DNA from: Leucoraja erinacea
Taxonomy: Eukaryota
DNA: 64,000 nucleotides
Direction: 5' to 3'
NCBI RefSeq assembly: GCF_028641065.1
Contig: NC_073400.1
Span: 31,868,001 to 31,932,000 of the forward strand
The notes beneath the pieces are model-generated. The model searched no databases and was not told the DNA's origin. It saw nothing but the letters and a program-made list of their open reading frames with translations. Below are positions 1,255 through 35,899 of the stretch, piece by piece; positions within the stretch are counted from its first letter, which is position 1, and each line of letters opens with the position of its first letter. Made by a program: the position numbers and the translations under genes.

Positions 1255-4200
1255 GAATACTAAACTGAAAACCCTTCTATCCATTGGAGGCTGGAGTTTT
1301 GGAACTACCAGGTAAAGTCTTAACAGCGGGTGACCCAGACTTACCGCCTTTGTCCCTCACTATCCACGCCTCTGATTAGAGATACAGCATGAAAACAGGC
1401 CCTTCAGCCCATCAAGTCCACGCCAACCATCGATCACCCATTCACACTCGTTCTCTGCTATCCCATTTTTCACATCCACTCCTTGCACACTAGGGGGCAA
1501 TTTACAGAGGGGCTGATTAACTTACAAACCCGCACGTCTTTGGAATGTGGGAGGAAACCGGAGCACCCGGAGAAAGCCCACGCAGTCACTGGGTGAACGT
1601 GCAAACTCCACACAGACGGTACCACTGTGTCAATCAATCAATCAACCAATCGATCAAAAGTTCATAAGTGAAAGGAGCAGAATTAGGCCATTCGGCCCAT
1701 CAAGTCTACTCCGCCATTCAATCATGGCTGATCTATCTCTCCATCTCAACCCCATTCTCCTGCCTTCTCCCCATAACCCCCTGACACCCGCACTAATCAA
1801 GAATCTGTCAATCCCCTCCAATGACTTGGCCTCCACAGCCGTCTGTGGCCATTAATTCCACAGATTCACCACCCTCTGATTAAAGAAATTCCTCCTCATC
1901 TCCTTCCTAAAGGAACGTCCGAAATGCTGCCTGAGCTGCTGAGTTACACAAACACACAAACCAACCTCCCCTCCATTGACTCCATCTACACCTCACGCTG
2001 CCTCGGCAAGGCCAGCAGCATCATCAAGGACCAGTCTCACCCCCGGTCACTCCCTCTTCTCCCCTCTCCCATCGGGCACGAGGTAGAGAAGTGTGAAAAC
2101 AAACGCACACACACCTCCAGATTCAGGGGCAGTTTTTTCCCGGCTGTTATCAGGCAACTGAACCGTCCTCTCACCAACTAGAGAGCGGTCCTGACCTCCC
2201 ATTTACCTCATTGGAGACCCTCGGACTTTGCTGGCTTTACCTTGCACTAAACGTTATTCCCTTATCCTGTATCTGTACACTGTGAATGGATCGATTGTAA
2301 TCATGTTCTGTCTTTCCGCTGACTGGTTAGCACGCAACAAAAGCTTGTCACTGTACCTACTCACGGCGCTCTCCCTGCTCCCGTTAGATTCACCAACATG
2401 GTGGCCACGACGGACTCTCGTGCGACCTTTATCCGCTCGGCCGTCTCCTTCCTGCGGCAGTTTGGATTTGACGGCCTGGACCTGGACTGGCAATATCCCG
2501 GCTTCAGGGAAAGTCCGGCAGAGGATCGGAACCGGTTCACTGTCCTGCTGAAGGTGAGAGGGCCGGGAATCTCCCTGTTACACACTCACACTAGTCCACG
2601 TTACACACTCACACTAGTTCATGTTACACACTCACACTAGTTCCTGTTACACTAGTTCACGTTACACACTCACACGAGTTCATGTTACACACTCACACTA
2701 GTTCATGTTACACACTCACACTAGTTCATGTTACACACTCACACGAGTTCACGTTACACGCTCACATACCATGCACTAGTTCATGTTACACACTCACACA
2801 CGGTGCACTAGTCCATGTTACACTAGTTCACGTTACACACTCACACTAGTTCACGTTACACACTAACATATGGTGCACTAGTTCACGTTACACACTCACA
2901 CTAGTTCACGTTACACACTCACACCCAGTTCACATTACACAATCACACTAGTTCCTGTTACACACTCACATACCATGCACTAGTTCACATTACACACTCA
3001 TACATGGCGCACTAGTCCATGTTACACACTCACATTGCGCCCTATGCCGTTACACACTCACACAGTGCACTTCCCATTACACACTAACTTCGGGTTGACT
3101 CAAAAGAAGGGTCTCGACCTGAAACGTCACCCATTCCTTCTCTCCAGGGATGCTGCCTGTCCCGCTGAGTCACTCCAGTGTTTTTGCGTCCATCTTCGAT
3201 TGTGATCACGTGTCGTCTTTGCGTTGACTGGTTAGCATGAGGAGCTTTTTACTGTAGCTCGGTACACGTGACAGTAAACTGAACTGAGCGCCCTGTGTCA
3301 CTGTTTCCCCCTGGTGTTCTGCAGGAGTTGCGAGCTGCGATACAGGACGAGGCACACAATGATGACAAAGGCAGACTGCTACTAACCGCTGCTGTTGCCG
3401 CCTACAAGGAGGTCATCGATAACGCCTACAACATCTCTGCCATCTCACAGTGAGTACCCGCATGAGTCACGCATGGTGGCCGTGTGTCGGCACTGGGCTC
3501 TGTACTCGCTGGCGTTTAGAAGGATGAGGGGGGGCTCATTGAAACGTACAGAATAGTGAAAGGCCTGGAGAGAGTGGATGTGGAGAGGATGTTTCCAGTG
3601 GTGGGAGGAAACCGAAGATGTCTGAGAAAACCCAAGCAGGTCACGGGGAGAACGTGCAAACTCCGTACAGACAGCGCCCGTAGACAGGTTCGAACCGGGT
3701 TTCTGGCGCTGTGAGGCACCAACTCTACCGCTGCGCCACCCAATTGTACTTGAGTACTTGAGACAGGTTTGGGTGTATCTATGTAGAGTATTATCGGATG
3801 TAATTGGAGAGCATGCAATCTTTTCACCGCATCTCGGTAAAGATTCACTGCATTACGCAGGCCGAATAGATTGTAATCAGTCACGGTGGCGCAGCGGTAG
3901 AGTTGCTCCTTACAGCGCTTTCAGCGCCAGAGACCCGGGTTCAATCCCCACTACGGGCGCTGTCTGTACGGAGTTTGCACGTTCTCCCCGTGACTTCCGT
4001 GGGTTTTCTCCAAGCTCTTCGGTTTCCTCCCACACTCCAAAGTCGTACAGGTTTGTAGGTTAATTGGTTTGGGATAAACGTAACTTGTCCCCAGTGTGTG
4101 TAGGATAGTGTTAGTGTGCGGGGATCGCTGGTCGGCACGGACTCAGTGGGCCGAAGGGCCTGTTCCCGCGCTGTTTCTCTAAACTAAAGAACAACTAAAC

Positions 4201-7013
4201 TAAACTAAAGATATACACAAAATGCTGGAGTAACTCAGCGGGTCAGGCAGCATCTGTGGAGAACATGGATAGGTGACACCCTTCCTCAGACTCGACCTGC
4301 AACATCACCCATTCCTTCTCTCCAGAGATGCTGCCTGTCCCACTGAGTTACTCCAGCATTATATGTCTCTTCAGTTTAAATCAGCAGTTCCTTTCTAAAC
4401 TAAACCAAATGCTTGTTGCCACAGACATTGTGGGCTGAAGGGCCTGTTCCTGTCCTGCACTATTCGATGTCTCTTCTGCAGTTGTATAGGGCTCTGGTGA
4501 GACCACATCTGGAGTATTGTATACAGTTTTGGTCTCTTAATTTGAGGAAGGACATCCTTGTGATTGAGGCAGTGCAGCCAAGGTTCATGAGATTGATCCC
4601 TGGGATGGCTGGACTATCATATGAGGAAAGATTGAAACAGACTAGGCTTGTATTCACTGGAGTTTAGAATGATGAGGGGGCACCTTATAGAAACATATAC
4701 AATTATAAAAGGACTGGACAAGCTAGATGCAGGAAAATTGTTCCCAATGTTGGGCGAGTCCAGAACCAGAGGCCACAGTCTTAGAATAAAGGGGAGGCCA
4801 AAAAACGTTTTCACCCAGAGAGTTGTGAATTTATGGAATTCCCTGCCAAAGAGGGCAGTGGAGGCCAAGTACTGGATGGATTTAAGAGAGAGTTCGATAA
4901 AGCTCTAGGGGCTAGTGTAGTCAAGGGATATGGGGATAAAGCAGGCACGGGTTATTGATAGGGGACGATCAGCCATGATCACAATGAATGGCGGTGCTGG
5001 CTCAAAGGGCTGAATGGCCTCCTCCTGCACCGATTGTCTATGTTTCGATGCCTCCACGACTACATGAATCTAACAACCTTCTTTTAATCAGGTGCTTGGA
5101 CTTCATTTCTGTGAGGACGTTTGATTTCCATGGACACTGGGAGAAGGTGACTGGCCACAACAGCCCGCTCTTCCTGGGTCCCACTGACAAAGGCAAATTT
5201 ATTTTCTATAACATTGTGAGTAGATTGATAATATACACCTTCTTCATGGTCACTATTTTACCACCAGGTTCAGGAATAGCTGCTTCCCAACACACAAGGG
5301 GTCAGGCAGCACCTTGCACTGAACCTTATACATGTTATTCCCTTTATCCTCTATCTGTGCACCATGGGCAGCTGGATTGTAATCATGTGTAGTCCCTCCG
5401 CTGAATATAGACAGAGTGCTGGAGTAACTCAGCGGGTCAGGCAGCATCTGTGGAGAACATGGATAGGTGACGTTTCACAGAGTGCTGGAGTAACTCAGCG
5501 GGTGCAGCAGCATCTATGGAGCTAAGGAAATAGGCAACGTTTCGGGCCGAAACCCGGAAGGGTTTTGGCCTGAAACGTTGCCTATTTCCAGAAGGATTTC
5601 AGCCCGAAACGTTGCCTATTTCCAGAAGTGTTTCGGCCCGAAACGTTGCCTATTTCCTTAGCTCCATAGATGCTGCTGCACCATAATTCAGTGGGTCAGG
5701 CAGCATCTGTGGAGAACATGGATAGGTGACGTTTCACATAGTGCTGGAGTAACTCAGTGGGTCAGGCAGCATCTGTGGAGAACATGGATAGGCGAAGTTT
5801 CACAGAGTGCTGGAGTAACTCAGCGGGTCAGGCAGCATCTGTGGAGAACATGGATAGGTGACGTTTCACAGAGTGCTGGAGTAACTCAGCGGGTCAGGCA
5901 GCATCTGTGGAGAACATGGATAGGTGACGTTTCACAGAGTGCTGGAGTAACTCAGCGGGTCAGGCAGCATCTGTGGAGAACATGGATAGGTGGTCCACGT
6001 TTTCACAGAGTGCTGGAGTAACTCAGCGGGTCAGGCAGCATCTGTGGAGAACATGGATAGGTGACGTTTCACAGAGTGCTGGAGTAACTCAGCGGGTCAG
6101 GCGCATCTGTGGAGAACATGGATAGGTGACATGGATAGGAGTCTCAGATTGCAGCTCTCAGTCTGAAGAAGGGTCTCGACCCGAAACGTCACCCATTCCT
6201 TCTCTCCAGAGATGCTGCCTGTCCCACGAGTTACTCCAGCACTTTGTGTGCCTATCTACGAATGAAATTGTTACATGTTCGGTACAAATCGAGACTCTCC
6301 TGACTGCCCAGAATGTGTCAGCAGCGATTATTTCACTCGTCATAAATTCATGTGATAGGAGCAGAATCAAATCGACTCCGTTATTCGATCGTGGCTGATC
6401 TATCTCTCCCTCTCAACCCCATTCTCCTGCCTTCTCCCCGTAACCCATGACACCCGCACTAATCAAGAATCCATCTATCTCTGCCTTAAAAAATCTCCAT
6501 TGACTTGTGGCCTCCACAACCGTCTGTGGCAAAGAATTCCACAGATTCACCACCCTCTGACTAAAGAAATTCTTCTTCATCTCCTTCCCAAAGGAACGTC
6601 CTTTAATTCTGAGGCTGCTGCATAGCCTCTGGTCCTGGACTCTCCCACTAGTGGAAACATCCTCTCCACATCCACTCTATCCTGGCCTTTCACTGTTCAA
6701 TGAGGACCCCCCCCCCACCCCCCGTCATCCTTCTAAACCCCAGTATAGTCGAGTCCCAGTGCCGTTAAACCACTCGCCGTATGTTAACCTGACCTTCAGT
6801 AATGTTGGTGCATGCGCTTATCCCTGCAGGACTTTGCTCTGAAGTATTGGCGGCAGCAAGGGGCGGCTGCGGAGAAGCTGCTCGTCGGGTTCCCCACCTA
6901 CGGACGCACGTTCACCCCTGAGCAGCAGCGGCAACGCCGTGGGGGCTCCAGTGACGGGAGCCGGTCAAGTGGGACTCTTCACCCGCGAGCCAGGACTGGT
7001 GGCTTACTATGAG
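1255..7013 (+). CDS. GH18 chitinase-like protein (CHIA/CHIT1 family), probable non-catalytic chi-lectin; partial gene, 5 internal exons
   Basis: AG/GT-bounded exons: 1255-1311 ([18 protein letters not shown]), 2388-2553 ([38 protein letters not shown]...LLK), 3325-3449 ([10 protein letters not shown]...[25 protein letters not shown]), 5092-5215 ([27 protein letters not shown]...YNI) and 6830-7013 ([35 protein letters not shown]). Phases are compatible and the 57/166/125/124-nt sizes are typical of vertebrate chitinases. The last exon has a +1 C (6915-6918). 5' exons lie before the window; 3' exons were not found. Confidence 0.9.
2575..3090 (+). repeat. About 23-bp minisatellite (cacactagttcatgttacacact)n
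   Basis: Degenerate tandem copies directly after the catalytic-motif exon. Confidence 0.85.
3880..4208 (+). mobile_element. tRNA-derived SINE (V-SINE/HE1-like)
   Basis: A-box ggtggcgcagcgg, B-box gggttcaatccc, conserved core gagtttgcacgttctcccc, LINE-like 3' hairpin and (CTAAA)n tail. Other copies at about 1380-1620 (-), 3600-3740 (-), 53015-53250 (+) and 60305-60540 (+). Confidence 0.8.
4475..5045 (+). mobile_element. CR1-like LINE 3' fragment
   Basis: [18 protein letters not shown]...GHSLRIKG...WNSLP. Confidence 0.85.
5410..6135 (+). repeat. 66-bp minisatellite array with nested palindromic element
   Basis: About 8 copies of the same 66-bp unit, with an inverted-repeat element at about 5490-5685. 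Confidence 0.85.
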
Positions 7014-8669
7014 GTACTGCAGCGCAGCCCCAACCTACACTCACAACATCATAAGGGATAGGAGCAGAATAGGGCCATTCGGCCCATCAAATCTACTCCC
7101 CCATTCAATCATAGAAACATAGAAAATAGGTGCAGGAGTAGGCCATTCGGCCCTTCGAGCCAGAGATCATCAGTTCATAAGGCCGTTCAGTGATAGAATT
7201 AGGCCATTCAGCCCATCAAGTCTACTCTGCCACTCAATCATGGTTAGAAACATAGAAGCATGGAAAATAGGTGCAGGAGTAGGCCATTCGGCCCTTCGAG
7301 CCTGCACCGCCATTCATTATGATCATGGCTGATCATCCAACTCAGTATCCCGTACCTGCCTTCTCTCCATACCCCCTGATCCCTTTAGCCACAAGGGCCA
7401 CATCTAACTCCCTCTTAAATATAGCCAATGAACTGTGGCCTCAACTACCTTCTGTGGTAGAGATTCACCACTCTGTGTGTGAAAATCACGGCTGATCTAT
7501 CTCTCCCTCCTAACCCCATTCTCCTGCCTTCTCCCCATAATCCCTGACACCAATACTGATCAGGAATCTATCCAAATATACTGTGTCCACTGCCTTGGCC
7601 TCCACAGCCTTCTGTGGCAAAGAGGTCTGTGTACACGCAGCAGCTCAGCTGCCGAGAATGTTTATCGCGAGTGACCTATGGCCTGGGCATGCCCAGTCGC
7701 AATACTGAACTCGCTTATTGGCCCTAGTATGTGTTGGATGGTGTTAGTGTACGGGGATCACTGGTCAGTACGGATTCGATCGGCACAAGGACCTGTAATT
7801 CTAAACTAAACTAAACCAAACTAAACAGCAGACAGACACAAAATGCTGGAGTAACTCAGCGGGACAGGCAGCAGCATCTCTGGAGAGAAGGAATGGACGA
7901 TGTTTCGCGACGAGACCCTTCTTCAGAATGGTTAGGGATAAGGGAAACGAGAGATATAGACAGTGATGTAGAGAGATAAAGAACAATGAATGAAATATTT
8001 GCAAAAAACGCCCAGACTGTCACACAATTCACGCTGCCTCGGCAAGGCCAGCAGCATCATCAAGGACCAGTCTCACTCCCGGTCACTCCCTCTTCTCCCC
8101 TCTCCCATTGGGCAAGAGATACAGTGAAAACGCAACACCTCACCAACTAGAGAGTTTGGCCCTGATTTGAACTCAGAGATTTACGGGAATAGCCGCTCGT
8201 AAGTACTCGGGGCTCTCGTGGACATTTTTCAATACGTTGATAAATCTTCACGAGTCTTCCCGAACTTACTGCGTTTCCCGAGTACCTGCCGTTAGCGTTA
8301 CGAGCCGCTAAGAGACGTCCCCAAGCTCCGACATACCCGCTACGTACATTCTACGTACTTACCACAAGTTTGATTTTTTTAAACTCGGGAGAGAACTTGA
8401 ATAAACTCGTACAGTGGGACAGGGCTATTACTCCAGAATTTTGTGTCTACCTTCGATTTAAACCAGCATCTGCAGTTCCTTCCTACACTAACCAGTTACA
8501 TGTTCTATGGACACTGTTGCGATTTGTTACTAGCATCTAATGGCCATTGCATAGTTCTCCTGAAGAATTCAATATAAACAATATTTTGAGAATCTTGATC
8601 CACATAATTTCAAAATTTATTTATGTCGAAATTCTGCTACAATGTGGTTTTTCCATGATGCAATGTGGC

Positions 8670-11600
8670 GTTTAATCTTACTATTTTACTTCGAGAGGTC
8701 ACGTGAGTGACTACCGTTGAAGACTTTCAAAGGTGTCTTTGATTTCAAACCGTGTAACAGTTATATCACTCACTGCCGAAAGGTCATCGAGGGAGGAAAG
8801 TGGTAGCTAGAGACCAACAAGTTTGTTTAGTTATAAAAAGAAATATTTATTAACTATAAACAAAAACAAAATAGCTCCCATGGGCTTTAAATCCTAACTT
8901 TGCGGTTTGTAAAACAGTATCCGCAAAGACACGCACGTCCTGTTCCATCAGCGGTTTGTTGTAAAAATCGTTGGAATGTCGATTCCCTTGACCATCCCGC
9001 TCGCCATGAGGGAGTGGTACGAGGGGGACCTGCAGTCCTATTACGCCGCTGAGGTGAGACGCCTGCCCTGGTTGAATGAGGATTTAAAAACATTAGTGTT
9101 AATCCCTGCCATGCTGAGGACCTGTTTCAACAATCTGGATAATGTTTGGCTGGTTAACCGTCCAAAAGGGTCCTGTGGCTAACCCATAAGGCTTTCTCTC
9201 TCCCTCTTAGCGTTGGGCTTGTGTCTAGATAATGATGAAGGTGGGTCACCACACACAGCCTAGTTTCTGGAGGGTAAGCCCGGAAGATCATCGGGGAGTT
9301 TGATGATACCTGGTCTACTTTGTTTACTACCAAACCCCGGCATAGTGAAAGAAATGGTCATCTGGGGTGGTCACCCAGTGGATAGTTATAGATATAAGCC
9401 TGAATGGACGCGACTGGAACCCTTTGAGCTGAGGACAAGCGCCATGAGCATGAGGGTTTTGTAAAGTGGCCTGTTCCAGGCTCAGGGATCCCACCGTGAG
9501 GGCCAACCTCGAAAAGGTGTGTGAGAACCACACTCACATCCCACATGTGAGTGTATCTAGGTGTAGGGGGTTTGGTTATTAAAGATCCCCTTAAGGAGTC
9601 TGATGACTAGAGGGTGGGATCCCACACTATGCTGTTTCTAATCGGGGTATAGCATTAGATATGCGGACAGTGCGCTCCGAGCCGTGTTGATGGCACTGTA
9701 GCTCATCTTGAGATCATGGTGGCAGGTGGGCCAGGAACTCCAGCACCGCCGAGAATCGAAGTCGTCGTGTAGGATGTCCCTGCGTTCCAGACAGTACTGT
9801 TCCCATTTCCCTGATGAAGGTCAGGTACTGTGTCTTGGTGGAAACTCGCAGGGATGCCGACATGGTGGTGATGGTTCTGTCTGATAACCCCAATCCCCGG
9901 TAAGGCCTGTTCAAATCTGGAAACCAGGAGTTTCAATTTTTTGGTGGCATGGATGCTAATGCAGTTACCGGGTGAGTCAATAATTGGGGGGTGGTGTTGA
10001 AGGACCATTGGTGTCTCTACCACCATGTCGTGGAACATTGGGCAACCATGGTTGGGTAGGCCAGTCGGGCCCACCAGAATGCCAGAGGCTTGAGTCTGCC
10101 CTGAATTTTCTGGAGTACCGCCTGATGAGGCAGAAGGGAGGGAAAGCATAGCAAAAGAAATTCCCCCAATCCAGCGCGAAGGCATCTACCGCTGCTGCCT
10201 CTGGGTCTGGTTCCCAAGCCACATACATGGGTAGTTGGTGATTTACCCTAGAACGCAACAAATCTATATCTGGCGTACCATATTGCTTGATAATTTTAGC
10301 AAATGATTTTGGGTCCAACATCCATACGATTGTCTAGTCTGTGCTTGCATTTTTCGTGACCATAGCGTGTCCGCCCACTAAATTTAGCTTGCCTGAGTAA
10401 ATAGGCAGCTTGTTAGCCAAATAGCTCGCGCTCGACACATCCCTATCCTGCGTCCTAGATTCTCTTAGCAGGTTAATGCTGGTCGCATGATAATGATCTT
10501 TAACTGCCACCCCATGTGCTGGATATGATAAGATACTTGCCGTAGTGTTGTCGATCAATAAGTCTAACATGCACGTGTCGCATCCCAGATTCTATTCTTT
10601 TAGAGCCCATAACCGGCGAGCGAGCATTTCCAAAAAGTTAATGCCCAGTGGACTGTAGTAGAGATGCCTCTGACTTAGTCCCCATCTGCCCACGGTGCTG
10701 TATTTGGCAGTTAGTAGCTACCCCAGCCTAAAGCCCTGGCATCCGTTGCAATGGTTTGGTAGTTACGATTGGTTACGTGATGAGTATGTAGGACTGTGAC
10801 TGCCTGCCAAATATGTCCAACGTCCACCACCGACGTTACTATTTTGGCTTCAGAGGGTTAAATCCATTTTGCGATCATAAGGCCCCCTATGAAGGCGTAA
10901 TTCATGAGTCCTTGCCATTGGAGATTTTGAATATGCAAGGGCCCATGTTGGGCAGCCGGAATGCGGCTAGCTGAATAGAGCACATAACTCTGGCAACATG
11001 CCGTATCTGCGTTGCGGTGCTTTATGTTGGCAATTAAATTGGCTACAAGCTTCAATGCGTGATGAAACTGTGGTGTCTGGGCACGAGTGACAGTCATGTG
11101 AAATCGTGTCATAGTGAAGCCTAAGTAATCCATGTTAGTAGTAGGTGCTCCATAATTGATTTATCTGGGTGACTCTGATAAAAACGCAGACGTGAAAGTT
11201 TCAAGGAGTTGTTTAGTGGCTAACACTCCTAGTGACAGCTTGATCCCGTGTTCTTTCCTAATATGAGAACATCGTCCAGATAGGCCACTACTAAATGTTT
11301 TAGTTCTCTCAATTTCTCATGGCCACTTTAAAGAATTTTCGTAAATTAGTTTCTGGGGAGCTGTCGTTAAATTGTTCCATTTGGGCAAAGCTCGGTATGG
11401 CCTGCCATAGCTGGCACCTCCAGATAAATTTCAGATATTTAAAGTAATCTTTTTTATGAATGGGTACCAAATAGTAAGCATCTTTGATATCTATGCCTTG
11501 CCATGTAGTATCCATTGGAGATAAGTTGTCGGGCAGTGACAAATGTCTCCACTTTGAAATGTTGATACTCAAGCAACTGATTAAGTGATGTCAGGTCAAT

Positions 11601-13514
11601 AATAATGCGACAGATGCCACCATCTTTTTTTGGTTTTGAGAAAAATATTTGATACAAATTCTTGCGGCTCGTGTGTGGTCATTTCTATGATGCCTTTAGC
11701 CACGAGCCGATCAAGTTCAGCTTGTCCTTCTACCTTCCTCACGGCGCTGCCGAGGGAAGGAACACCCTTTGGGGCATGTGCTGGAACTGGCGGGTTCTAA
11801 CGCCTCTGGTGTTGAATTCAATCTTGTATCCACTAATACTGTTGAGTTATAAACACGTGATTGTTAGTAAGGGACGAGGAGCACAAACTGCTTGAAAGAA
11901 CCTCAAACGTCCCCCTGTTAAACTGACTACAAACACTACTTTGTCTGTGTAGGTTGACAGGAACCAGACCCACCTACCTCCATGTTCACGTTGTGGGGTC
12001 CTTTTATCGGTGGGGTCTGGCCAAGGTTTGTCCGTGTGTGTGGCTGCGTTGGGCCGGCGCTTCCATCTCCCACGGCTCCGCCCTGGGCCCGCGGCTCTAA
12101 AAAAAGAGCAGTGCGGGGGTAGTGGGGAGGCGGTCCCCAGGGCTTTCACCAGCTCGGTACTCTGCTGGTGGCTGCCTGAGGCGTTGCGCGGCCAACCTGG
12201 GTGTCTCTTCGCCCTTCTCGGTCCTGGCCCTGCCCCTCATGAGGCCTACTGGTTTGGCGGCCTCTTCCAACTCCTTGATCCTTTTGGCAGCAGATAAGCA
12301 CCAAATAGCAGCACGTGTCGTTCGTCGATGGCGCTGGCGCTAGGAGCTTTACAGAGGCCCGCTTGTGTTGGGTTGAGGGTTTCAGGCCTGATGTGTCCCG
12401 CCGTAGTTGGTTTAGCTAAGGTACGTGGACTGCTGCACATCAAGTGCGAGGGCATCTTGCCGGGGGTATGGTCCAAGGTCTTCATCCCCAACCTGGACCG
12501 AGCAAGGCGGTGACGGCTGCTGAGTTTAAGCTTCAGGACTCGCTGCATTTTCTGACCTCCTGAGCCCTTATGTGCTGCCCCCAGCTGGCTTCCAGATCTG
12601 CCCATTACCAGTCTTGACCCTCAGCGCCTCGCGAATTTTCGGGCGCGATGTAGTGTCCAAGGGCCTGCTGGACAGCCTTGTCCTGCATAGCAGCGGTCTG
12701 TTGGATCAGCCTGTTTATAGTTGCCGAGCCCATTACGATTCCTGGGTGGCAAACACCATCCCAGTTGTTGGTGCCACTACGAGTGCCCCCGCATATCGGC
12801 CCCCTTACACCTGCCAGTTAGCTTCTTCTTTTCTTCGGCACTCCCGGGCCTATGCTGACGATATCCTCCTCCGCCTGCCCTTGGGATAGGCCATGTCCCA
12901 GTCCTGGCCTCCCTTACTGCCTCGAATATATAGAGGGTTACAGAAGGGTGTGGGAGAGGAGGAGGCCCAAAGCCCGTCTTCCTGGGCGATGCAGCATCTC
13001 CTTCATTGATCATACGCTCGAGGAGCTTGCCCTCATGCAGCTTATCCGAACGTCTCCCCTCCCTTTTCGTGGGGGAGAGTGTCTTCCCGTTCCTCCGAAT
13101 CCGGAGGCGAGGACATCGGTCGAGTCGGTTTTTTCTGTGTCGCCTTCCTCCCTGTGGTCGGGGCGTTGAGATTTGCCGCACTGGGGGCGCTCGCTCGGTG
13201 TCGGTGAGACGGGAAGCGTTGATGAAAACGCTCCTCCGCTGCCGAGAGGGCTGCCGTCCCGCTATGTGACCCGTCCTCGGGTGGAGTAGGGCAGGCAGTC
13301 CTCCTGGCTGGTCGCTTGCCGAGAGGCCATTACGTCCTCTCTAGCGCGACTTCCTGAAACAAAAAAGGCACTATACCTGAGGTCTCGTCTTTATGCTGCA
13401 CTGGAGAGCCTGGCTCCAGCTGCTGCCGCTGTTGCACTGCTAACGTAATGCCGCGCCTGCGCGCTGGGTGGGTTCTTCACGTAGTTCACTCACGTGACTC
13501 TCCGACAGTAAAAT
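8670..13514 (-). mobile_element. Second DIRS copy of the same family, heavily indel-disrupted; 3' terminus missing
   Basis: Colinear with 30580-35102: fragments of YR (AGWSRESTFQRF), MT (YAFPPF), RT (GIDIKDAYYLVPIH) and gag, plus the 5' terminus (gggtgggttcttcacgtag) and half of the ICR at about 8680-8725. Confidence 0.9.
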
Positions 13515-16500
13515 AATCCGGCGGCTTATGACGATACTAACACAAATTTATGGGAACGAGAGAATTAACAATATTTATTTGGAAATTGAAAAGCAGAAAA
13601 AATCGCTGTCATGGATAAAAAACAGTCTACGGGAAAAAACTGTTTTGTGTGTTACAGCCCCACAGTTAATCAGACACCATGTTTTGGGTTTTGTAGGTGA
13701 CCAAATTAGAGGACATTGACAATAATTACTTGGAATTGAGGCATCGTTACTTAGCTTTAGTTTAGTTGGAGTGTCACATGTATTGTAGCCGGCGATTCTC
13801 ATGCAACATGGGTTTTTCTGCTAGGTGCTATCAGTCAGGATGGATGAAGATCCACTCGAACCGTCTACAGTGTACAAATGCAGCGGATAAGGGGGATATT
13901 TTGTCCCGCCTGCGACCTCAGCACAAGACAGGGTTGAGTTGTTCTTGCAGATATTAACAATAATTCTATTGACTTGACCAGTACAGGCGTGTGGGGGGGG
14001 GGTGGGGGGAGGGGAGATCAGTGCAGGATAGATGGGGGGGGGGTGCAGTACAGTATGGGATCGCAGGTCTGTGCAGGATGAAATGTGATTTCACTACGGA
14101 TGAATGAGGGAAGGTTCCAGTAAATGAGGTGGGTCCAGTACGGGATGAATGCGTGTATTATACAGATGGAGGGGATCAGTATATATGTGGAGGAGGTGCA
14201 GTATGATGGGAAGGTGTAAGTACGGGTTGATTGGGGCCAGTGGAGATGATGGATGGGGGCTATGGCGGCAGGAGGATTATTGTGTGGTGGATAGGAGTGG
14301 ATCGCACATGATGAATAGATGGGGGGGGGTTAACACATCCTACACACATAGGGTGGGGTTTAGAATGGTCGGGAGCACATTGGAATAATCAGTGTCGACT
14401 GAATAGGGCGGGAATGGGGATCAGTGCGGGATATAGAGGAGGGTTCCCAGGCATACAGGGGGGGGGGGGGTGGTGAAGGGGCTTAAAAAAAAAAGGAAAA
14501 AAAAATCGAACCCGAGAGAGACGGGGGTCGAGTGGGGAGGAAGGATTAGCTGTTCACCGCTCCTCCTCGGACCGTATCGCCCGCCTGCCTCAGGTATGTT
14601 GGGAATTCCTCGCCACTCGCCTCCCTCTCTCCGCCAGCAATGGGCCAGCGGCTCTCAAAGATCCTATGCTATAGTATCTTTGGTGCAGCGTATGCTTTCA
14701 AAGTGTCGAGAGGGTGAATGACGGTCATATTTACGGTGGCGAAAGTCGGCTCCGGAGCTCCTCCTCCTCCCTGATAGCTTCGCTGGCTTGCCAACCCGTA
14801 ACGGCGATAAACCGTGAGCAGCGCAGGAAACAACCCTCCCCACACCCGATCCCGGCGAGCGGTGCGGGCGAGGCCTCATCGCGTTAAAACGCAGCGTTAT
14901 CGGATTTGCACGGAGGCCCGTATCAGGGAGGAGGATGATATGGAGCGCACTGTTCGTGGCCTGTCCATTTGTCCGGACGGAATTTGTCCACCCGCACCTA
15001 GTATTTTTCTCACTCAATAGCAGTCGTCCCGACGATACAAAACGTTCGCGTCCTTTTCCCCCCTCTTCCGTTTTCTCCATAGATGCTGCTGCCTAACCCT
15101 CGGGAGTTTCTTTCCTTCTTGTTTCTTCTTCTCCAGTTTTTTGTGTCTATCTTCGGTACAAAAACCCCCCCAGTCGATCATGGGGTTGCCAAGCCGGGCC
15201 AAATGCTCGGTGTTTAGCTGCCCAGCCGGCCTACTTTTAGTGGTCACAATATGGCCCCGAGTGACACACCGCTAATTCGAGCCCTGCTTCGAGAGATAAT
15301 TGCGGTAAATCTTTTCCATCTCATAGCAATATGACACACGGAAACGAATTTATGAAATCTACATTTAACATGTGATATAGGTCTATATGATTCCTTCCGA
15401 GGGCCTTTATCTTTTTTAAGATACTAAAGAAATAGCAATGACTTCATAAAAGATTGTGGTAAATCGTATGTCCTGGTAAAAGGCTTCTTAAATCTCACAT
15501 AGCCACGGAGACAATAAATTAGAAAATACTTTAAAATTCTACTGTAAACCTCTAAACGCAATGGTAAATTTGATGTAAGTTCAGTTTCTTAAAACTCACA
15601 TGCATTAATCGGAATCAGTATTAAAATCTGATTGTATAAAGGCCAGTATATGAAAATTCCTGAAAGGATTTAGTAATTCGCATGTCTACAGTTAGTGTAC
15701 CAGCCCGTTTACTCACTTTAGTATCTGATGTTTGGCCGACGGGCTTGGCTTTCAATTCGATTAGCAGTAATTTACCAATTGTTCCGCGCATGTATATACA
15801 ATTGACTTTTGAGTTTAAGTAACTGGTTTCGTCAATCGTGATACTAATAACAAATCATATTCTCAAATCGGTGTTCAACTCTATTCAACCAAGTTCCACT
15901 CTGCATTCTCAACAGGCAGGCGCGAGGAGCTTTTGTCAGGACTAGAGGGCATGAGGGCAGGGACGATGTTTATGGTCTGATCCCTGTCCGCAGCGACAAG
16001 GTGCGGCATGATTGGCCCTCACCTCACTGCCGTCTTCGCTAGATTTCTAGCTGAGCTTGCATTTGTAAAAATGGTGGTTTGTTTTGCAGGTGACTCCAAG
16101 TTACTGCTTCTGCATCAAGATTAAAGTGCTTTCCTTATGATTCTCAGCACTTCATCAAAGCACCAATAAACATTGTCCTTGTGAAATCTTTTCACCACTC
16201 ACGTGCTTCTAACAGAATGATTCTTGTAGTTGGTCTGTGCGACCAGAATAGCACACACGCACTGACACAGACACACACCCACTCACCCCACCACTGACAC
16301 ACAACACACCCACCACACACACTCCTGAAACAGCAACACACACACACTGCCACACAACACTCACGCCACAACACACAGCAACGACACACACTCTACTCCG
16401 CCACACACACTACACCACGACACACGTTGTTGTTTTTGTTGTTTGTGACACACTAACACACACACACTGACCACTACCTCACAGCACACAACACCACACA

Positions 16501-19500
16501 CAACACACTCCGCACTTTTACACACACACACTCCTACACACACCACACACACACTGACCCACAACACACACTCACGCACACACAACCCACAACATCATTC
16601 ACCACAACACACACACACAACCCCACCCCCCTTCCGCTCTTCCCACACATTCGCTACAAACCACTACAATAATTCTTTTTCACCTCTCCTAAGTGTATTC
16701 CCCCACCCCATTGTCTACGCCCCTCCTTTTCTCTTCCACCACCCTTCCCCCCCCCTTTTTCCCGACAACTTCCTCCAATGCTCCCCACCCTTCCCTTCTT
16801 TCCTACCCCCCCTTTTTATCCCCCCACTTTCTCATATACCCCCCACCTTTCCCTCTTTCCTCACTCTCTGTTTCATTTTTCCCCTTCTTATCCTTTCCTT
16901 CTCACTTTCTCACCTTTCCTTTCTTTCTCCATTCCTATCCCTTCCGTGTTTCTACTTTTCTTGTTTTCCTCTTTTCTCCTATTTTTTTTTATCTCTTTTT
17001 TTCTTTCTCTTTTCGCTCTTCTTTTTGTTTTTCATTCCTTTTTCCCGTTCTTGTTCTACCCTCTTTTTTTTTCTCTTTCCCGCACCTGTTTCCCCTTTAT
17101 TTCCTTTTTTTTTTTTTTTTCTCTTTCTTCTTTTCTTTTAGCGCTCTGTGTGCCCTCTCTATCTATAGCGTGTTTTGTGTGTCCCTGCTTTGTTTTTTTG
17201 TTTGGTTTTTTCGCCCCTCCTCTCTCCCCCACCGATTGTACCCCCACTCCACTGCACCAACCACATCGACATGTCTTCTTTCAAAACCCCCTCCCGTGTT
17301 TCTGCTTTCTGATGACTTCTCAAACTCCCCCAACCACCCACAAACCCCAATCCACAGGTGTTTCCTCCCAATTCTTAGTGTCCCAGCCAGTATAACGTAC
17401 CATTCACACGATTACCTCCCTTTTTTTTAGAGAGAGTTGAATATGAGACAACGCTGAGTGCTACTTATGACTTGCTAAAACAACACTTTTCTTTGTGTCT
17501 GTCAACAAGAAAAAATACAGACAAGGGATAGTGAGGTTAGACGTTGGACAAGTGTTTGTTTGAAGTTTGAAAGAGAGTTGACTTGTTAGTAGGTGTGACA
17601 ACTGTAAGTGGAGACACAACCACCAAACCCACCAAAAACAAACACAAACACCACAAAAACACCACAAAAAAAACATCACAAACCAAAATGTGAAAAATGC
17701 GTGGAGCTGCTTACAACAATGGAGTGTAGTGCTGCTGTTCGTCTGAGCTTCGAGAATTGTGTTGAGAGAAGTTTGTAGTCGGAGCAGTGATTAGTGTTGT
17801 GTGTGAGAATCGATGTAGATGTGTGAAAACCAAGAAGAAGAACATAAGAATTTAAGAAGAAATAGATGGTATAATGTTCGTACAAAACACAACAAAATCA
17901 TCATTGAAAAATGGTCGAAATAACTATCTATAGATAATAAATGAATAAGAGAGATCACAGTCTGAGGTAGGGGAAGCTTCAGACAGAGTACATAGATGGT
18001 ACACAAAAAAAAAAACTAAAAAAAAAAAACAACACACAACAACAACTACGACCAAAAACGAGGTCTATTACAAGCAGAGAGCACCAGATCACAACAAGAA
18101 AAAGTCGAGCTTGGATATCACAACAAACAATATAACCGGGCATTACCATACACCGTTTTGCTCTAGATGCCGGGGTTTTTTGTTTGACAAGAGAACGTAG
18201 ATATTGTTGATTCTATGGTGATGTTGTGTACCCGTTTTGCAGGGAGGCAGCGTCCGGGGAGCCCAAACACAAAAATGAGAATCAAGAAACACACCACAAC
18301 AAAATCCAAAAAGATAAAACAGATTGTGGAGCTTGATCAAAAAGATCTAGTGGGGTGGTACGATTGTTGTGGATGGTTCATGACACCTATGTTGTTTAGA
18401 AAATAGCTGTGTAGCACTGTGACAAGAAATGTGTGTGGCATGGTTGGCACAAGTGCGGCAGTGTGACACAAGTGTGAATGCAGCACTCTGCCGCCTGTTC
18501 TTTGGCGGGGGGATGAGCCCCCGTGCCGTCTTGCCCAGCGACTTCAACAAAAAACAAATCCTCACGTACCTAAGACATCACATATCTCCTTCTTCCAACC
18601 ACTCATAAAGATGCTTCATACCCCGGCCAAACAACCAACAAAAAAACACCCCCCATCAGCCACACCCCAATGAAACCAAAACAACGGCGTGACAAAATGA
18701 ATCTAAAGAACAAAAGAAAACCAAGGACTAAGAAAGACTTCTTATTGAATCTCACGCCGAGGACCGATTCTCAACAGACCCAAATGAAAAAACACACTAA
18801 AACCACAACACAGGTACTGCTTGAGCCTGGCAAGCAAAAAAAGACTTCCCGGGTAATATCCCTCTTTGTGCCTCATGTCCCCGCTGGGGTGGTGTGGACT
18901 GGGAGCTGGTCCGCCTGGCATTTTGTTTCTTTCATGCGGATCCCGATGCTTCGTGTCCGTGTCTTTTGTGCTTCGCCCTCCCCTGGGGCTGCCTTTCCAC
19001 GGGTTCTTTCCCTTTCCCCTTTTCTCTGTCTCCTCTCTGCTTGCCGCGCCGCACCCTTTGGCGCACATGACACAAACAAAATTTCTTCTCAATTCTCCTA
19101 GGTTTTGTCATCCATTTTCCTAGAGAGAACCCAAACTAAGTCATACCATTCTAGAATCACGCTCACATAAGAAATCCAACCCCTGTGATTTACACTTCCC
19201 CAATAACATATAATGGAGAAAGGCTACCACTGTTCGCTTTGGCTAGCATCAGCGGATTTTCAAGCTTCTACGTTCTCGTCGCCCGGTTGTGTGGGCCCCT
19301 TTTTCCATCGGTCGGGCCCGCTCTACACACCCCCCAAGGCGGGCTGCCGCGACTTCCGAGGCCGTCATATGCTTTTCTTTCCCTGCGGGGGCCCTTCATT
19401 CCGAGGTTTGTCGCCTTAGTGTCTTCTATCAAACAAAAAAGATGAAGGATATGTTTGCGTCTTATTCTTTTCTTACTTCCCCTCCTGTCCCCATACCATT

Positions 19501-19900
19501 CGAGGGAGGGAGCCTTTTGCTAACCTTAGTCACATAATTGGTGCAATTCTCTAAAGAATAATTTAGAATTATAGCACATCCCCATAGACGGACTCATCAA
19601 TCTGACACTCTTTTCGAGTGTCCACCAGTATAGGCTTTGAGCTTATTTTTCTTTACATTACATTGAACCCCAACTCAAGAGAGAAACAACACTATGCTCA
19701 GCTAGCAATGGTGTCACTGACCCCCCCCGAGTCTAGGAGCTCGCGGGGTGCTAGTAGGTACTCGTCGGCATCAAGTATGGTGGACCGAGGAAATCAGAGC
19801 CGGTTTTTAGCTGACTGAGAGAAATTTCAAGAGTAAAAAGATCGTGATTAGGTCGTGAAAGTGGGAATGGCCCCTAACTCGCGGCACAGAGGCCGCATGT
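13515..19900. other. Low-quality, low-complexity assembly segment
   Basis: Degenerate CA-, CT- and A-rich tracts and garbled versions of repeats that are clean elsewhere; no interpretable ORFs. Confidence 0.7.
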
Positions 19901-29085: not shown

Positions 29086-30787
29086 TCATCACAGTTGAGG
29101 CAGAAACTATCCCAACGTTTAAGAAACAGTTAGACAGGAACATGTAAAGGACAGGTTTGGAGGGATATGGACCAAACGTGGACAGGTGGGACTAGTGTAG
29201 CTGGGACATGTTGGCCAGTGTGGGCAAGTTGGGGCCGAAGGGCCTGTTTTCCATACTGTATCACTCTATGACTCTATTACACTATGACATTAAATAAATA
29301 ATGATTACAAAATGAAACTCCACATAAATCCCATCTTCTCCTCTGGCTGTCTACACAACACACTCATTGACTGCAGCAGATACAATGAATGTCACACTGG
29401 TGGTACCAGGGCACCTCTGGAAAATGTTCTTCTCAAGATGTGATTGAGAAGATGATGTAACATAGAACATGGAACAGCACAGGAACAGGCCCTTCGGCCC
29501 ACAAGGTCCGTGCTGAACATGATGCCAAGTTCAGCTAATCTCCTCTGCCTGCACCTGATCCATAATCTCAATTCCCTGCATGTCCATGAGATCTTTTAGA
29601 TAAAGACTCTGAACTATTGTATCTGCCTCCACCACCCACAGCATTGTGTTCCAGGCACCCACCACCCTCTGTGTCCCGCACATCTTTAAATTTTTCCTAT
29701 CTCAATGGACAATAGACAATAGGTGCAGGAGTTGGCCATTCGGCCCTTCGAGCCTGCACCGCCATTCACTGTGATCACCGCCATCCACAATCGGTACCCC
29801 ATTCTTGCCTTCTCCCCATATCCCTTGACTCCGCTATATTTAAGAGCTCTATTTAACTCTCTCTTGAAAGCCTCCTACCCTAAAGCGATGCCCCTCTAGT
29901 CTTTGGCATTTTCCACTCTGCGCAAATTGGTTCTGACTGTCTACCCTATCTGGCTCTCATTGAAACATAGAAACATAGAAATTAGGTGCAGGAGTAGGCC
30001 ATGGAACATGGAACAGTACAGCACAGTAACGATTGTAACTGCCTGCACTTGTATCTTTAAATGTTTCCTATCTCAATAGACAATAGACAATAGACAATAG
30101 GTGCAGGGGGAGGTCATTCGGCCCTTCGAGCCTGCACCGCCATTCAACATGATCATGGCTGATCATCCGACTCAGTATCCAGTACCTGCCTTCTCTCCAT
30201 ACCCCCTGATCCCTTTAGCCACAAGGGCCACATCTAACTCCTTCTTAAATAAAGCCAATGACTGGCCTCAAATATCTTCTGTGGCAGAGAATAGTGAGAT
30301 TAAACGAGTACTTACCAGTACGAAGTTTGATCTGTATTTTATGAGGAGTTACGATGAGGGATTACGTGAAGAACCCACCCAGTGCGCAGGCGCGGCATAC
30401 TTCCAAGCAGCGGTGTGGAATCACAGGTAGACACAATATTGAAGTAAAGATAGTAAAGATTAAAGAGACATCAGCTCGAGTTTGATCTATACAACGAGGG
30501 TGGGAGCGGAGGGCACGTAATCCCTCATCGTAACTCCTCATAAAATACAGATCAAACTTCGTACTGGTAAGTACTCGTTTAATCTCACTATTTTACTTCG
30601 GAGTCACGTGAGTGACTACGTGAAGACTTCAAAGGTCTGTGATTTCAAACCGTGTAACAGCTATATCACTCACTGCCGAAGTTCATCGAGGGAGGAAGTG
30701 GTATCTAAAGACCAACGAATTTGTTAGTTTTTTGAAAACAAAATTGTTTATTTAACAATAACAAAAATAGCTCCCCTGGGCTTTAAA

Positions 30788-31765
30788 TTATAAGTTTGCA
30801 GATTCTAAAATTTTGTCCGCAAACAAGTCCTTCTCCATCAGCGGTTTGTGGTAGAATTTTCGGAACGTTGATTCCCTTGACCATCCCGCTGTACTAAGGA
30901 TGTGGTCTATGGGAACCTGCATCCGTTCCGCCGCTGACGTGGACGCTGCCCTGGTAGAATGGGATTTTAAAACATCCGTGTTAATCCCCGCGGCTTTTAA
31001 GACCTGTTTCAACCACCTAGATATTGTCTGGCTGGTAACCCGTCCAAAAGGCTTTTTGTGGCTGACCCATAAGGCTTTTTCACTCCCTCTAAGCGTTTGG
31101 GTTGTGTCTACGTAGTTGTATAGATGGGTCACTACACACAGCCTAGGTTCTGGAGGATAGGCCCGGAAGATTAACGGAGAGTTGGGCATACCTGGCCTGC
31201 TTTGTTTTACCAACCCCGGCATGGTAAATGTAATGGAGTCTGGGGTGGTTACCATGTTGTCCAGTCTTAGTTGATGCAGTGACTGAACCCTTTGTGCAGA
31301 GACGAGCGCCATGAGCATGAGGGTCTTGAGAGTGGACTGCTCCAGACTCAAGGATCCCACCGGAGGCCAACCTCTAAGGTGTGACAAAACTACACTTACA
31401 TCCCATACATGGGTGTATCTGGGTGTAGGGGGTTTAGTATTATAAATCCCTTTGAGGAGTTTTATAACCAGAGGGTGGGATCCAATGCTGTGATGTCCTG
31501 TAGGCATAAGGTAAGCGGACAGGGCGCTCCGTGCTGCATTGATGGCACTGTAGCTCATCTTTTGGTCATGGTGCAAGTGGGCCAGGAATTCCAGCACGTC
31601 CGTGATCGAGGCTGTCTTGTATGATGTCCCTGCATCCAAGCAGTACTGCTCCCATTTCTTGATGTAGGTCAAGTACTGTTTCTTGGTAGAGACTCGCAGG
31701 GACGCCGACATGGTGGTGATTGTTCGTTCCGATAACCCCAATCCCTGGTAAGGCCTGTTCAGAAC
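30788..31765 (-). CDS. DIRS ORF3: tyrosine recombinase
   Basis: Catalytic-type residues in SAQRVQSL (R), LVKQSR (K), SHSTR (HxxR), AGW (W) and TFRKFY (Y). Confidence 0.92.
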   Translation of the reverse strand, partial: VLNRPYQGLGLSERTITTMSASLRVSTKKQYLTYIKKWEQYCLDAGTSYKTASITDVLEFLAHLHHDQKMSYSAINAARSALSAYLMPTGHHSIGSHPLVIKLLKGIYNTKPPTPRYTHVWDVSVVLSHLRGWPPVGSLSLEQSTLKTLMLMALVSAQRVQSLHQLRLDNMVTTPDSITFTMPGLVKQSRPGMPNSPLIFRAYPPEPRLCVVTHLYNYVDTTQTLRGSEKALWVSHKKPFGRVTSQTISRWLKQVLKAAGINTDVLKSHSTRAASTSAAERMQVPIDHILSTAGWSRESTFRKFYHKPLMEKDLFADKILESANL

Positions 31766-34963: not shown

Positions 34964-35899
34964 TTACCTGAGGTCTTGTCTTTATCCTGCCGCTGGAGAG
35001 CCTGGCTCCAGCTGCTGCCGCTGTTGCGCTGCTGACGTAATGTCGCGCCTGCGCACTGGGTGGGTTCTTCACGTAGTCACTCACGTGACTCCGAAGTAAA
35101 ATTCCACAGATTCACCACTCTCTGTGTGAAAAATGTTTTTCTCATCTCAGTCCTAAAAGATTTCCCCCTTGTCCTTAAACTGTGACCCCTTGTCCTGGAC
35201 TTCCCCAACATCGGGAACAACGTTCCTGCATCTAGCCTGTCCACCCCTTGAGAATTTTATTACCTTCTGTCAGGTCTCCGCTCAACATCTGAAGTTCTAG
35301 AGAAACCAATCCATGATTATCCAACCTGTCCATATAACTTGCTATTGAGGGAGTGCAACGTAGGTTCACCAGGTTAATACCCGGGATGGCGGGACTGACA
35401 TGTCAACTTCTTCTTTCGTGTGGCGTGCACAGCCTAAAGTTGTAGGACAACTTGTTCTATTTGATGTTTAAGTAGAAACTGCAGATACTGGAAAATCGAA
35501 GGTACACAAAAATGCTGGAGAAACTCAGCGGGTGCAGCAGCATCTATGGAACAAAGGAAATAGGCAACGTTTCGTCCCGAAGGTTCCTGGAGGTTGCAGG
35601 TGGTTGCCGGAGGTTGCAGGTAGTGGAAGCAGGTAGGGAGACAGACAAAAACCTTAGGGAACCGCACGGAAACCTTGGGTGGGGCGCAAAGTCTCCAGAG
35701 GTTTCCGTTCAGGTTTCCTAAGTGGGACAGGGGCATTAGTGCAACCTTGGACATTCCATAGACGTTCATCGTTGACCTCAGTGTCGTGTCGTGTTCAACA
35801 GCCTGATGGTTGTTGGGAAGGAAGAATTGATCCAACGCCATCCCAGCTGCCGGCTCAGATTGAGTATAAACTGTGGAACCAGCGCAGGTGCCAAGGGCT

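What the first reader, a model, noticed from the sequence alone, without database searches (positions are those of the whole stretch)
2461..5215. Chitinase paralogue with catalytic Glu->Gln: probable independently evolved chi-lectin
Seen: the motif reads [12 protein letters not shown] (CAA at 2491-2493) instead of DxxDxDxE. A later exon reads RTFDFHG where the neighbouring paralogue has MTYDFYG, losing the conserved Met and Tyr of the active site. The first four exons have intact frames and splice sites. Knowledge: that Glu is the GH18 general acid; rodent Ym1/Ym2 have Gln there, and chi-lectins (YKL-40, YKL-39, OVGP1, Ym1) are best known from mammals. Inference: convergent origin of a chitin-binding lectin in a cartilaginous fish, adjacent to the diversifying V array and possibly part of the same defence module.
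Basis: partly seen in the sequence, partly recalled or inferred. Interest (0 to 1): 0.7.

Follow-up and report, generated by a model that had tools for sequence, protein, structure and literature searches.

The report
Ray-specific dead chitinase keeping chitin-binding tail
Skates and a sawfish share a chitinase gene whose catalytic glutamate is replaced by glutamine while its chitin-binding tail is intact, so it likely makes a secreted protein that grips chitin without cutting it, an origin separate from the mammalian chitinase-like lectins tested.

Summary
Confirmed. Exon 5 reads [12 protein letters not shown] (CAA, 2491-2493) and exon 7 reads VRTFDFHG. In human CHIT1 numbering these are E140Q, M210R and Y212F, against E/M/Y in 102 of 102 other aligned vertebrate chitinases. 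A pseudogene is unlikely. A full-length protein from a 1,726-nt public contig (P0012) matches the assembly's exons to residue 267 and carries a complete CBM14 domain. Orthologues in Amblyraja, Rhinoraja and Pristis keep Q140 and F212; R210 is skate-only. In this assembly exon 8 has one extra C, which short-read contigs appear to lack, and exons 9-11 are missing. The Q genes form one clade (100/100) inside an elasmobranch clade whose 16 shark members keep Glu. AU tests reject union with CHI3L1 and the acidic chitinases. The loss of Glu is therefore batoid-specific and convergent. The protein is likely secreted, non-hydrolytic and chitin-binding; activity, ligand and tissue are untested. Novelty is moderate: GH18 lectins arose many times, including in bony fish, and two more Glu-less paralogues sit in this cluster. 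The intact CBM14 and the arginine near the -1 pocket are the unusual features. A link to the V array is unsupported.

The parts
1255..1311 (+). Exon 4 ([15 protein letters not shown]99 kept, N100S). Exons 1-3 (signal peptide, YKLVCYY N-terminus) lie upstream of the window at G000:C24, window-relative -4489..-4465, -2134..-2102, -968..-764.
2388..2553 (+). Exon 5 with the catalytic motif DGLDLDWQ: D136 and D138 kept, E140Q (CAA 2491-2493)
3325..3449 (+). Exon 6; G187Y (Cys in Pristis; Gly in 99 of 102 other rows)
5092..5215 (+). Exon 7 with VRTFDFHG: M210R, Y212F, D213 and W218 kept
6830..7013 (+). Exon 8; one extra C in the run 6915-6918 shifts the frame in this assembly, probably an assembly error
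8669..13514 (-). Frameshifted tyrosine-recombinase retroelement copy downstream of exon 8; low-complexity, apparently poor-quality sequence follows at about 16-19 kb, where exons 9-11 would be expected
53807..53941 (-). Degenerate relic of this lineage's exon 10 (TGA stop), next to a V-set exon on the opposite strand; not the functional exon
60731..63713 (-). Exons 7-11 of the neighbouring acidic-chitinase (CHIA-type) paralogue, which has an intact DxDxE in its upstream exon 5

Best explanation
This is a conserved batoid gene for a GH18 chitinase-fold protein that has lost its catalytic acid (E140Q) and likely acts as a secreted lectin that binds chitin without cutting it. Shown: the substitutions; an intact spliced product with a signal-peptide-like N-terminus and a complete CBM14; conservation in three named batoids; descent from a clade of shark genes that keep Glu. 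Inferred mechanism: Gln140 cannot protonate the glycosidic oxygen, and Y212F removes a hydroxyl at the catalytic pocket, so hydrolysis should be abolished. The CBM14, with its six Cys and the P451/L454/W465 equivalents kept, would anchor the protein on chitin, and the retained cleft aromatics (Y27, W31, W99, W218, W358) would hold oligomers. In skates M210R, G187Y and the loss of W71 probably reshape and shorten the cleft, so CBM14 may carry most of the chitin binding. The likely role is to coat dietary, parasite or endogenous chitin at a mucosal surface as a binding or signalling protein. The tissue is unknown.
For: Q140 and F212 are present in 5 of 5 batoid rows and 0 of 102 other rows. P0012 lies on a 1,726-nt Logan contig, joins exons that are kilobases apart, and is identical to the assembly from residue 1 to 267; P0001 is a second such product. 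Domain against linker identity: skate-Rhinoraja 88% catalytic, 88% CBM14, 46% linker; skate-Pristis 75/66/24%, which indicates purifying selection. Pfam GH18 E=5e-96 and CBM_14 E=7e-9. The AlphaFold model has pLDDT 89 and superposes at about 1.0-1.3 A on CHIT1, AMCase and Ym1/2 catalytic domains. Tree built without the four motif columns: Q clade 100/100 inside a 100/99 clade with 16 Glu-bearing shark rows. Glu140 is the proton donor (PMC11182645, passages); P451, L454 and W465 are the high-impact CBM residues (PMC5459812, passages) and are kept.
Against: No binding or activity data exist. In G000 itself the gene is frameshifted in exon 8 and lacks exons 9-11, and the run behind P0012 is unnamed, so it may come from a very close relative. 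The Pristis RefSeq models lack the N-terminal exons. No stingray, manta or electric-ray orthologue appeared in the top 120 of either search. W71, Y56, N72, M210 and Y212 are changed in skates, which could impair binding in the cleft. No dN/dS could be computed.
Confidence: 0.72

Rival explanations
1. The protein is functional and non-catalytic, but the remodelled cleft binds something other than chitin (sulfated glycosaminoglycan, glucosamine oligomers or a protein partner), as reported for Ym1. CBM14 then only tethers it.
For: Skate-specific changes cluster at cleft positions: M210R, G187Y, W71K/R/S, N72E, Y56F, N100S. Skate rows depart at 17-19 of 174 conserved columns, against a median of 4 in other rows. 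Ym1 is described as binding glucosamine oligomers, heparin and heparan sulfate (PMC9366555, passages).
Against: The main stacking residues W31, W99, W218 and W358, plus D213, Y267 and R269, are kept in all batoid rows that cover them. Pristis keeps M210. This reading overlaps with the best one and differs only in the cleft ligand.
Confidence: 0.2
2. The gene works in other batoids, but in this species or individual it is broken: a real frameshift, a retroelement insertion and loss of exons 9-11.
For: One extra C in exon 8. Exons 9-11 were not found by three searches of the window and G000. A retroelement follows exon 8. Scattered relics of exons 7 and 10 show that the locus has been rearranged.
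Against: Short-read contigs over 6669-6963 are one base shorter than the assembly, with one gap each (one sample, gap position not shown). P0012 is identical to residue 267 and reads through. The downstream sequence looks like poor consensus.
Confidence: 0.1
3. It is still an enzyme with residual hydrolase or transglycosylase activity, using D136/D138 or a deamidated Gln.
For: D136 and D138 are kept in 5 of 5 batoid rows, and CBM14 is kept as in active enzymes.
Against: E140, M210 and Y212 are invariant in 102 of 102 comparison rows. Y212F also accompanies loss of Glu in two other paralogues and in a teleost dead copy. Gln at this site marks non-enzymatic IDGFs, Ym1/2 and oyster chitolectins (PMC1945033, passages).
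Confidence: 0.06
4. The gene is part of one defence module with the adjacent V-set array.
For: It lies next to the array. A relic of its exon 10 sits beside a V-set exon at two loci, window 53.8-56.1 kb and C24:12.89 Mb.
Against: V-set exons also lie at about +74, +84, +92, +106, +116 and +127 kb among active CHIA-type genes. Relic and V exon are on opposite strands. The full-length products hold no Ig domain. Co-duplication of segments explains the proximity.
Confidence: 0.08

Closest known systems
Rodent Ym1/Ym2 (Chil3/Chil4)
   Same: GH18 fold (rmsd 1.0-1.3 A, about 50% identity) and Gln in place of the catalytic Glu (PMC1945033, passages).
   Different: Ym1/2 derive from rodent Chia (PMC9366555, passages) and have only the GH18 domain (PMC2717817, abstract listing). 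The batoid gene is outside the CHIA clade, keeps D136/D138 and keeps CBM14.
Mammalian CHI3L1 (YKL-40), CHI3L2 (YKL-39), OVGP1
   Same: Non-catalytic GH18 proteins; mature N-terminus YKL; main cleft tryptophans kept.
   Different: They have Leu or Ile at 140 (PMC1945033, passages), and hamster CHI3L1 also has D138A. CHI3L1 is rejected as sister, p-AU 0.011. OVGP1 and CHI3L2 were not in the tree. None carries CBM14 according to PMC4373397 section 9.
Shark 'acidic mammalian chitinase-like' genes (e.g. Pristiophorus P0021, Heptranchias XP_067863652.1, Heterodontus XP_067913406.1)
   Same: Nearest relatives: 68% identity in the catalytic domain to P0021, same GH18-linker-CBM14 layout, same clade.
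   Different: All 20 shark rows keep E140, M210, Y212, G187 and W71.
Bony-fish chitinase-like proteins (zebrafish, gar and medaka CLP; salmon Chia.5)
   Same: Non-mammalian vertebrate GH18 with a mutated motif. Arapaima KAL4601591.1 also reads DWQY.
   Different: Salmon Chia.5 is CHIT1-like with a truncated chitin-binding domain (PMC10234404 section 11). The Centropristis dead copy is rejected as sister (p-AU 0.018). The partial Arapaima row falls near CHIT1 but is not rejected (p-AU 0.22).
Invertebrate Gln-type chitolectins (Drosophila IDGFs, Crassostrea gigas)
   Same: Glu replaced by Gln (PMC1945033, passages).
   Different: Separate origins; IDGFs lack the chitin-binding domain.

Membership tests
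GH18 family | Glyco_hydro_18 domain and (beta/alpha)8 fold | tested here: met
   Pfam PF00704 322 bits; model pLDDT 89, top fold match CHIT1
Active GH18 endochitinase | DxxDxDxE with catalytic Glu | tested here: not met
   Gln in assembly, short-read contigs and four batoid protein sets
Active GH18 endochitinase | Chitin hydrolysis | not testable with these tools
   needs an assay
Chitinase-like protein / chi-lectin | GH18 fold with the catalytic Glu replaced | tested here: met
Chitinase-like protein / chi-lectin | Intact, expressed gene under constraint | tested here: met
   spliced full-length products P0012 and P0001; domain against linker identity. Indirect: the assembly copy itself is incomplete.
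Chitinase-like protein / chi-lectin | Retained sugar-binding cleft residues | tested here: inconclusive
   Y27, W31, W99, D213, W218, Y267, R269 and W358 kept; W71, M210, Y212 and G187 changed
Chitinase-like protein / chi-lectin | Secretion signal | tested here: inconclusive
   hydrophobic N-terminus ahead of YKLVCY, read by homology; no predictor was run
Chitinase-like protein / chi-lectin | Measured carbohydrate binding | not testable with these tools
   needs a binding assay
Classical vertebrate CLP architecture | No chitin-binding domain (PMC4373397 section 9) | tested here: not met
   CBM14 present at residues 418-464
CBM14 | Six Cys plus P451, L454 and W465 equivalents | tested here: met
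   PMC5459812 passages
CHI3L1 orthologue | One clade with mammalian CHI3L1 | tested here: not met
   p-AU 0.011
CHIA / Ym1 lineage | One clade with acidic chitinases | tested here: not met
   CHIA clade 100/99 excludes it; union with own CHIA-type paralogues p-AU 1e-6. Ym1 itself was not a row.
CHIO group | One clade with tetrapod and ray-finned CHIO genes | tested here: inconclusive
   83/82 support, not recovered; the CHIO labels are my recalled assignment
OVGP1 / CHI3L2 orthologue | One clade with these genes | not tested
   no such rows were held

The most novel reading that the evidence does not exclude
Batoids turned their only copy of an elasmobranch chitinase lineage into a two-handed matrix protein: CBM14 grips the animal's own chitin, for example in the electrosensory ampulla gel, while the Arg-bearing dead cleft binds an anionic glycan and shields or cross-links the gel. 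With the two other Glu-less paralogues, this would be a cartilaginous-fish radiation of pseudo-chitinases tied to endogenous vertebrate chitin.
Probability: 0.1. Interest if true: 0.75.

Novelty: new variant of a known kind. Interest (0 to 1): 0.45.

Why it matters
It extends non-catalytic GH18 proteins to cartilaginous fishes, with a datable origin on the batoid stem (shared by skates and a sawfish) and Glu-bearing shark sister genes available for direct comparison. That gives a natural before-and-after pair for how an enzyme becomes a lectin. Y212F recurs with loss of Glu in three lineages seen here, which suggests a repeated path. Keeping a full CBM14 departs from the usual vertebrate CLP layout. 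Skates are reported to make their own chitin (bioRxiv 10.1101/687301, part 1 of 2 read), so a non-cutting chitin binder is a testable candidate for handling it. The general phenomenon is well known, which limits the surprise.

Tried and rejected
1. Single-sequence fold failed (pLDDT 33) and was replaced by the fold from a 107-row alignment.
2. Convergence with the YKL-40 change M61I (PMC11190707, abstract and sections 9 and 11) was rejected: Ile stands there in 50 of 82 non-shark comparison rows.
3. No RNA holder on record was listed for the stretch. Guessed-RNA runs X20, X15 and X16 gave no exon cover, the raw-read RNA run X21 next to none, and DNA run X5 none at exon 5. These blanks are no evidence on expression.
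4. The second exon-7 hit at C24:32.54 Mb is an orphan copy of about 1.3 kb with no other exon in 110 kb around it, so it is not the missing 3' end.
5. Permissive searches for exons 9-11 in the window found only paralogues and the relic.
6. The exhaustive HMMER search of cluster representatives could not be run, so distant Gln-bearing vertebrate relatives and further batoids are under-sampled.
7. The ESM Atlas gave only ordinary chitinase clusters for the Amblyraja orthologue.
8. Earlier scan notes: nothing found.
9. Literature: ten searches listed no paper that, by title or abstract start, describes a chondrichthyan chitinase-like lectin. Hussain and Wilson 2013 (J Mol Evol 76:240), the main vertebrate GH18 survey, is not held and may cover such genes. 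No supplements were read.
Full report
Observation. The motif is as reported: [12 protein letters not shown] with CAA at 2491-2493, and VRTFDFHG in the exon at 5092-5215, where the minus-strand neighbour has MTYDFYG. The window lies at G000:C24:31868001-31932000. The gene has three more exons upstream of the window, encoding a hydrophobic leader and a YKLVCYY start. All internal junctions of exons 1-8 are GT-AG. By the alignment to human CHIT1, the changes are E140Q, M210R and Y212F.

Is the codon real? A contig of run X1 spans 2331-2606 with two other letters and no gap. Differences listed for X1 or X2 in that stretch are at 2374, 2481 (silent) and 2573, none in the codon; 468 rows were not shown, including one of X1's two. 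X1 and X2 are one sample and may be the source of the assembly. A contig of run X3, from another organism code and study, covers the whole exon, and its only listed difference is at 2383 in the intron. The Gln is not a sequencing error.

Is the gene alive? In the assembly it looks damaged. Exon 8 has one extra C at 6915-6918, and exons 9-11 were not found in the window or in G000 (such searches score only the best candidates). Three results argue that this is mostly an assembly problem. First, the short-read contigs over exon 8 are one base shorter than the assembly, each with one gap whose place was not shown. Second, P0012, a 464-aa protein on a 1,726-nt public contig, is identical to the assembly's translation from its residue 1 to 267, reads through exon 8 and ends in a complete CBM14; P0001 (1,539-nt contig) differs in the shared part at one internal residue. 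Contigs of that length that join exons kilobases apart are best read as spliced transcripts (inference). Third, the sequence after the retroelement that follows exon 8 is low in complexity and shares almost no 15-mers with the flanking DNA. I cannot exclude a real deletion in this individual.

Orthologues. Amblyraja radiata XP_032898113.1, Rhinoraja longicauda XP_078276467.1 and Pristis pectinata XP_051890542.1 all have Gln140 and Phe212. The skates also have Arg210, while Pristis keeps Met. Alignment A2 has 107 rows chosen from the top hits; I left out double-domain models, invertebrates and one fragment. E140, M210 and Y212 stand in 102 of 102 non-batoid rows, 20 of 20 sharks included. G187 is also changed in all batoid rows (Tyr or Cys). 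Skates further change Y56, W71, N72 and N100. Y27, W31, W99, D136, D138, D213, W218, Y267, R269 and W358 are kept. The Pristis models lack the N-terminal exons, so their first 80 or so columns are uninformative. Identity is far higher in the domains than in the linker: 88/88/46% (catalytic/CBM14/linker) for skate-Rhinoraja and 75/66/24% for skate-Pristis. This stands in for dN/dS, which I could not compute. No stingray, manta or electric-ray orthologue was among the 120 listed hits of either search.

Origin. Trees were built without the motif columns. The careful tree has 56 rows, 14 of 70 having been left out as redundant, gappy or long. The four Q rows form a clade (100/100) inside an elasmobranch-only clade (100/99) whose other 16 rows are Glu-bearing shark genes. 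AU tests on quick trees reject union with hamster CHI3L1 (p 0.011), with the genome's own CHIA-type genes (p 1e-6) and with a dead teleost copy (p 0.018). They barely reject union with the two other Glu-less paralogues of this cluster (p 0.0496) and do not reject union with a 184-aa Arapaima fragment that also has Gln (p 0.22), although the free tree puts that fragment near CHIT1. Whether the elasmobranch clade belongs to the CHIO group is unresolved (83/82; not recovered). The batoid clade nests beside sawshark rows, which may reflect paralogy or its longer branch. Ym1, OVGP1 and CHI3L2 were not rows. Of 13 catalytic exons found in the C24 cluster, 7 have an intact motif, 3 change an Asp but keep Glu, and 3 lack Glu (Gln, Ala, His). 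Of the paralogues placed in trees, none falls in the shark sister clade, so the Q gene appears to be this genome's only member of it.

Mechanism. Glu140 donates the proton to the glycosidic oxygen (PMC11182645, passages), and Tyr212 lines the same pocket (PMC12042104, passages). Gln at 140 marks non-enzymatic IDGFs, Ym1/2 and oyster chitolectins (PMC1945033, passages). Loss of hydrolysis is therefore a strong inference. The model from A2 is confident (pLDDT 89, only the linker and leader low) and matches CHIT1, AMCase and Ym1/2 at about 1 A, so the fold is intact. The CBM14 keeps six Cys and the equivalents of P451, L454 and W465, the high-impact binding residues of human CHIT1 (PMC5459812, PMC4844120, passages). 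Chitin binding through CBM14 is thus likely. Binding in the cleft is less sure, because Arg210 may fill the N-acetyl pocket (recalled role of Met210; not modelled) and W71 is gone. I put a functional, non-cutting chitin binder at 0.72. A different cleft ligand overlaps with that reading; breakage in this species and residual activity are minor rivals.

V array. The array encodes single V-set Ig exons whose best PDB matches are weak (IL1RAPL1, nectin-like). Related exons lie among the active CHIA-type genes downstream too, and a V exon with an exon-10 relic recurs at C24:12.89 Mb, each time on opposite strands. This shows co-duplication, not a shared module.

What is known. Zebrafish, gar and medaka each have one predicted CLP, and CLPs are said to lack the chitin-binding domain (PMC4373397, section 9 and passages). 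Salmon Chia.5 has a mutated motif and a truncated domain (PMC10234404, section 11 and passages). Ten searches listed no paper on a chondrichthyan CLP (listings only), but the main survey, Hussain and Wilson 2013, could not be read, and no supplements were seen. The RefSeq models are named simply acidic mammalian chitinase-like. Chitin and chitin synthase expression are reported in skate ampullae of Lorenzini (bioRxiv 10.1101/687301, part 1 of 2 read), which motivates the novel case; no expression data here bear on it.

Verdict. The feature is real and conserved, and it is a convergent pseudo-chitinase of batoids. It works like a chi-lectin by inference and is not an orthologue of the mammalian one tested. 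It is a new variant of a known kind, notable for its intact CBM14 and the skate Arg210. Interest 0.45.

Noticed in passing
G000:C24:32167031-32183839 (L089-L091; L058, L061): Second Glu-less GH18 paralogue: motif DLDWAF (E140A) with exon 7 VQTFDFHG (M210Q, Y212F). Its exon matches show no stops, and no CBM14 exon was seen in the fetched stretch.
   Followed up: partly
G000:C24:32201801-32222408 (L093-L095; L059): Third Glu-less paralogue: DLAWHY (D138A, E140H) with MSFDFHG (Y212F); sister to the E140A copy (99/95). Y212F thus accompanies loss of Glu here, in the Q gene and in a Centropristis dead copy.
   Followed up: partly
G000:C24:32030684, 32071712, 32255687: Paralogues that keep Glu but change an Asp: D138H, D136E and D138V. 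The D138V gene is orthologous to Heterodontus P0006 and Heptranchias P0048, which share the Val, and has two CBM14 domains.
   Followed up: partly
window 23186-56087: Array of V-set Ig exons in both orientations (27.7-28.0 kb minus, broken; 37.0, 41.6, 48.5 and 55.8 kb plus, open; relic at 23.3 kb) inside 2-3 kb segmental repeats of 91-98% identity; six more distant V exons lie at +74 to +127 kb. Family not identified.
   Followed up: partly
window 30576-35102 (-) and 8669-13514 (-): Two copies (79% alike) of a tyrosine-recombinase retroelement. The second has long open frames with RT and integrase Pfam hits; the first is heavily frameshifted.
   Followed up: partly
G000:C24:32539025-32540385 (L046-L047): Orphan inverted copy of exon 7 of the Q gene (exon letter for letter identical) with about 1.3 kb of flanks at 95-97% identity.
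   Followed up: yes
window 53807-53941 (-) and L053:5594-5734 (C24:12.89 Mb): Two stop-containing relics of this lineage's exon 10, 88% alike, each beside a V-set exon on the opposite strand: a chitinase-V segment was copied to a site 19 Mb away.
   Followed up: yes
window-relative -41.9 to -15.3 kb and +60.7 to +138.8 kb (L003-L016, L006-L010): Recent near-identical duplications of CHIA-type genes: an inverted tail-to-tail pair upstream and three copies downstream, one (+96 to +101 kb) ending at an N gap after exon 6.
   Followed up: partly
window 2570-3080: Imperfect tandem repeat (units of about 22 bases) in intron 5.
   Followed up: no
window 14900-19900: Low-complexity stretch with almost no shared repeat words, probably poor consensus sequence.
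   Followed up: partly
L068, L072 (G000:C2:132.71-132.72 Mb): At least three CBM14-like exons on another chromosome with no GH18 exon seen in 20 kb.
   Followed up: no
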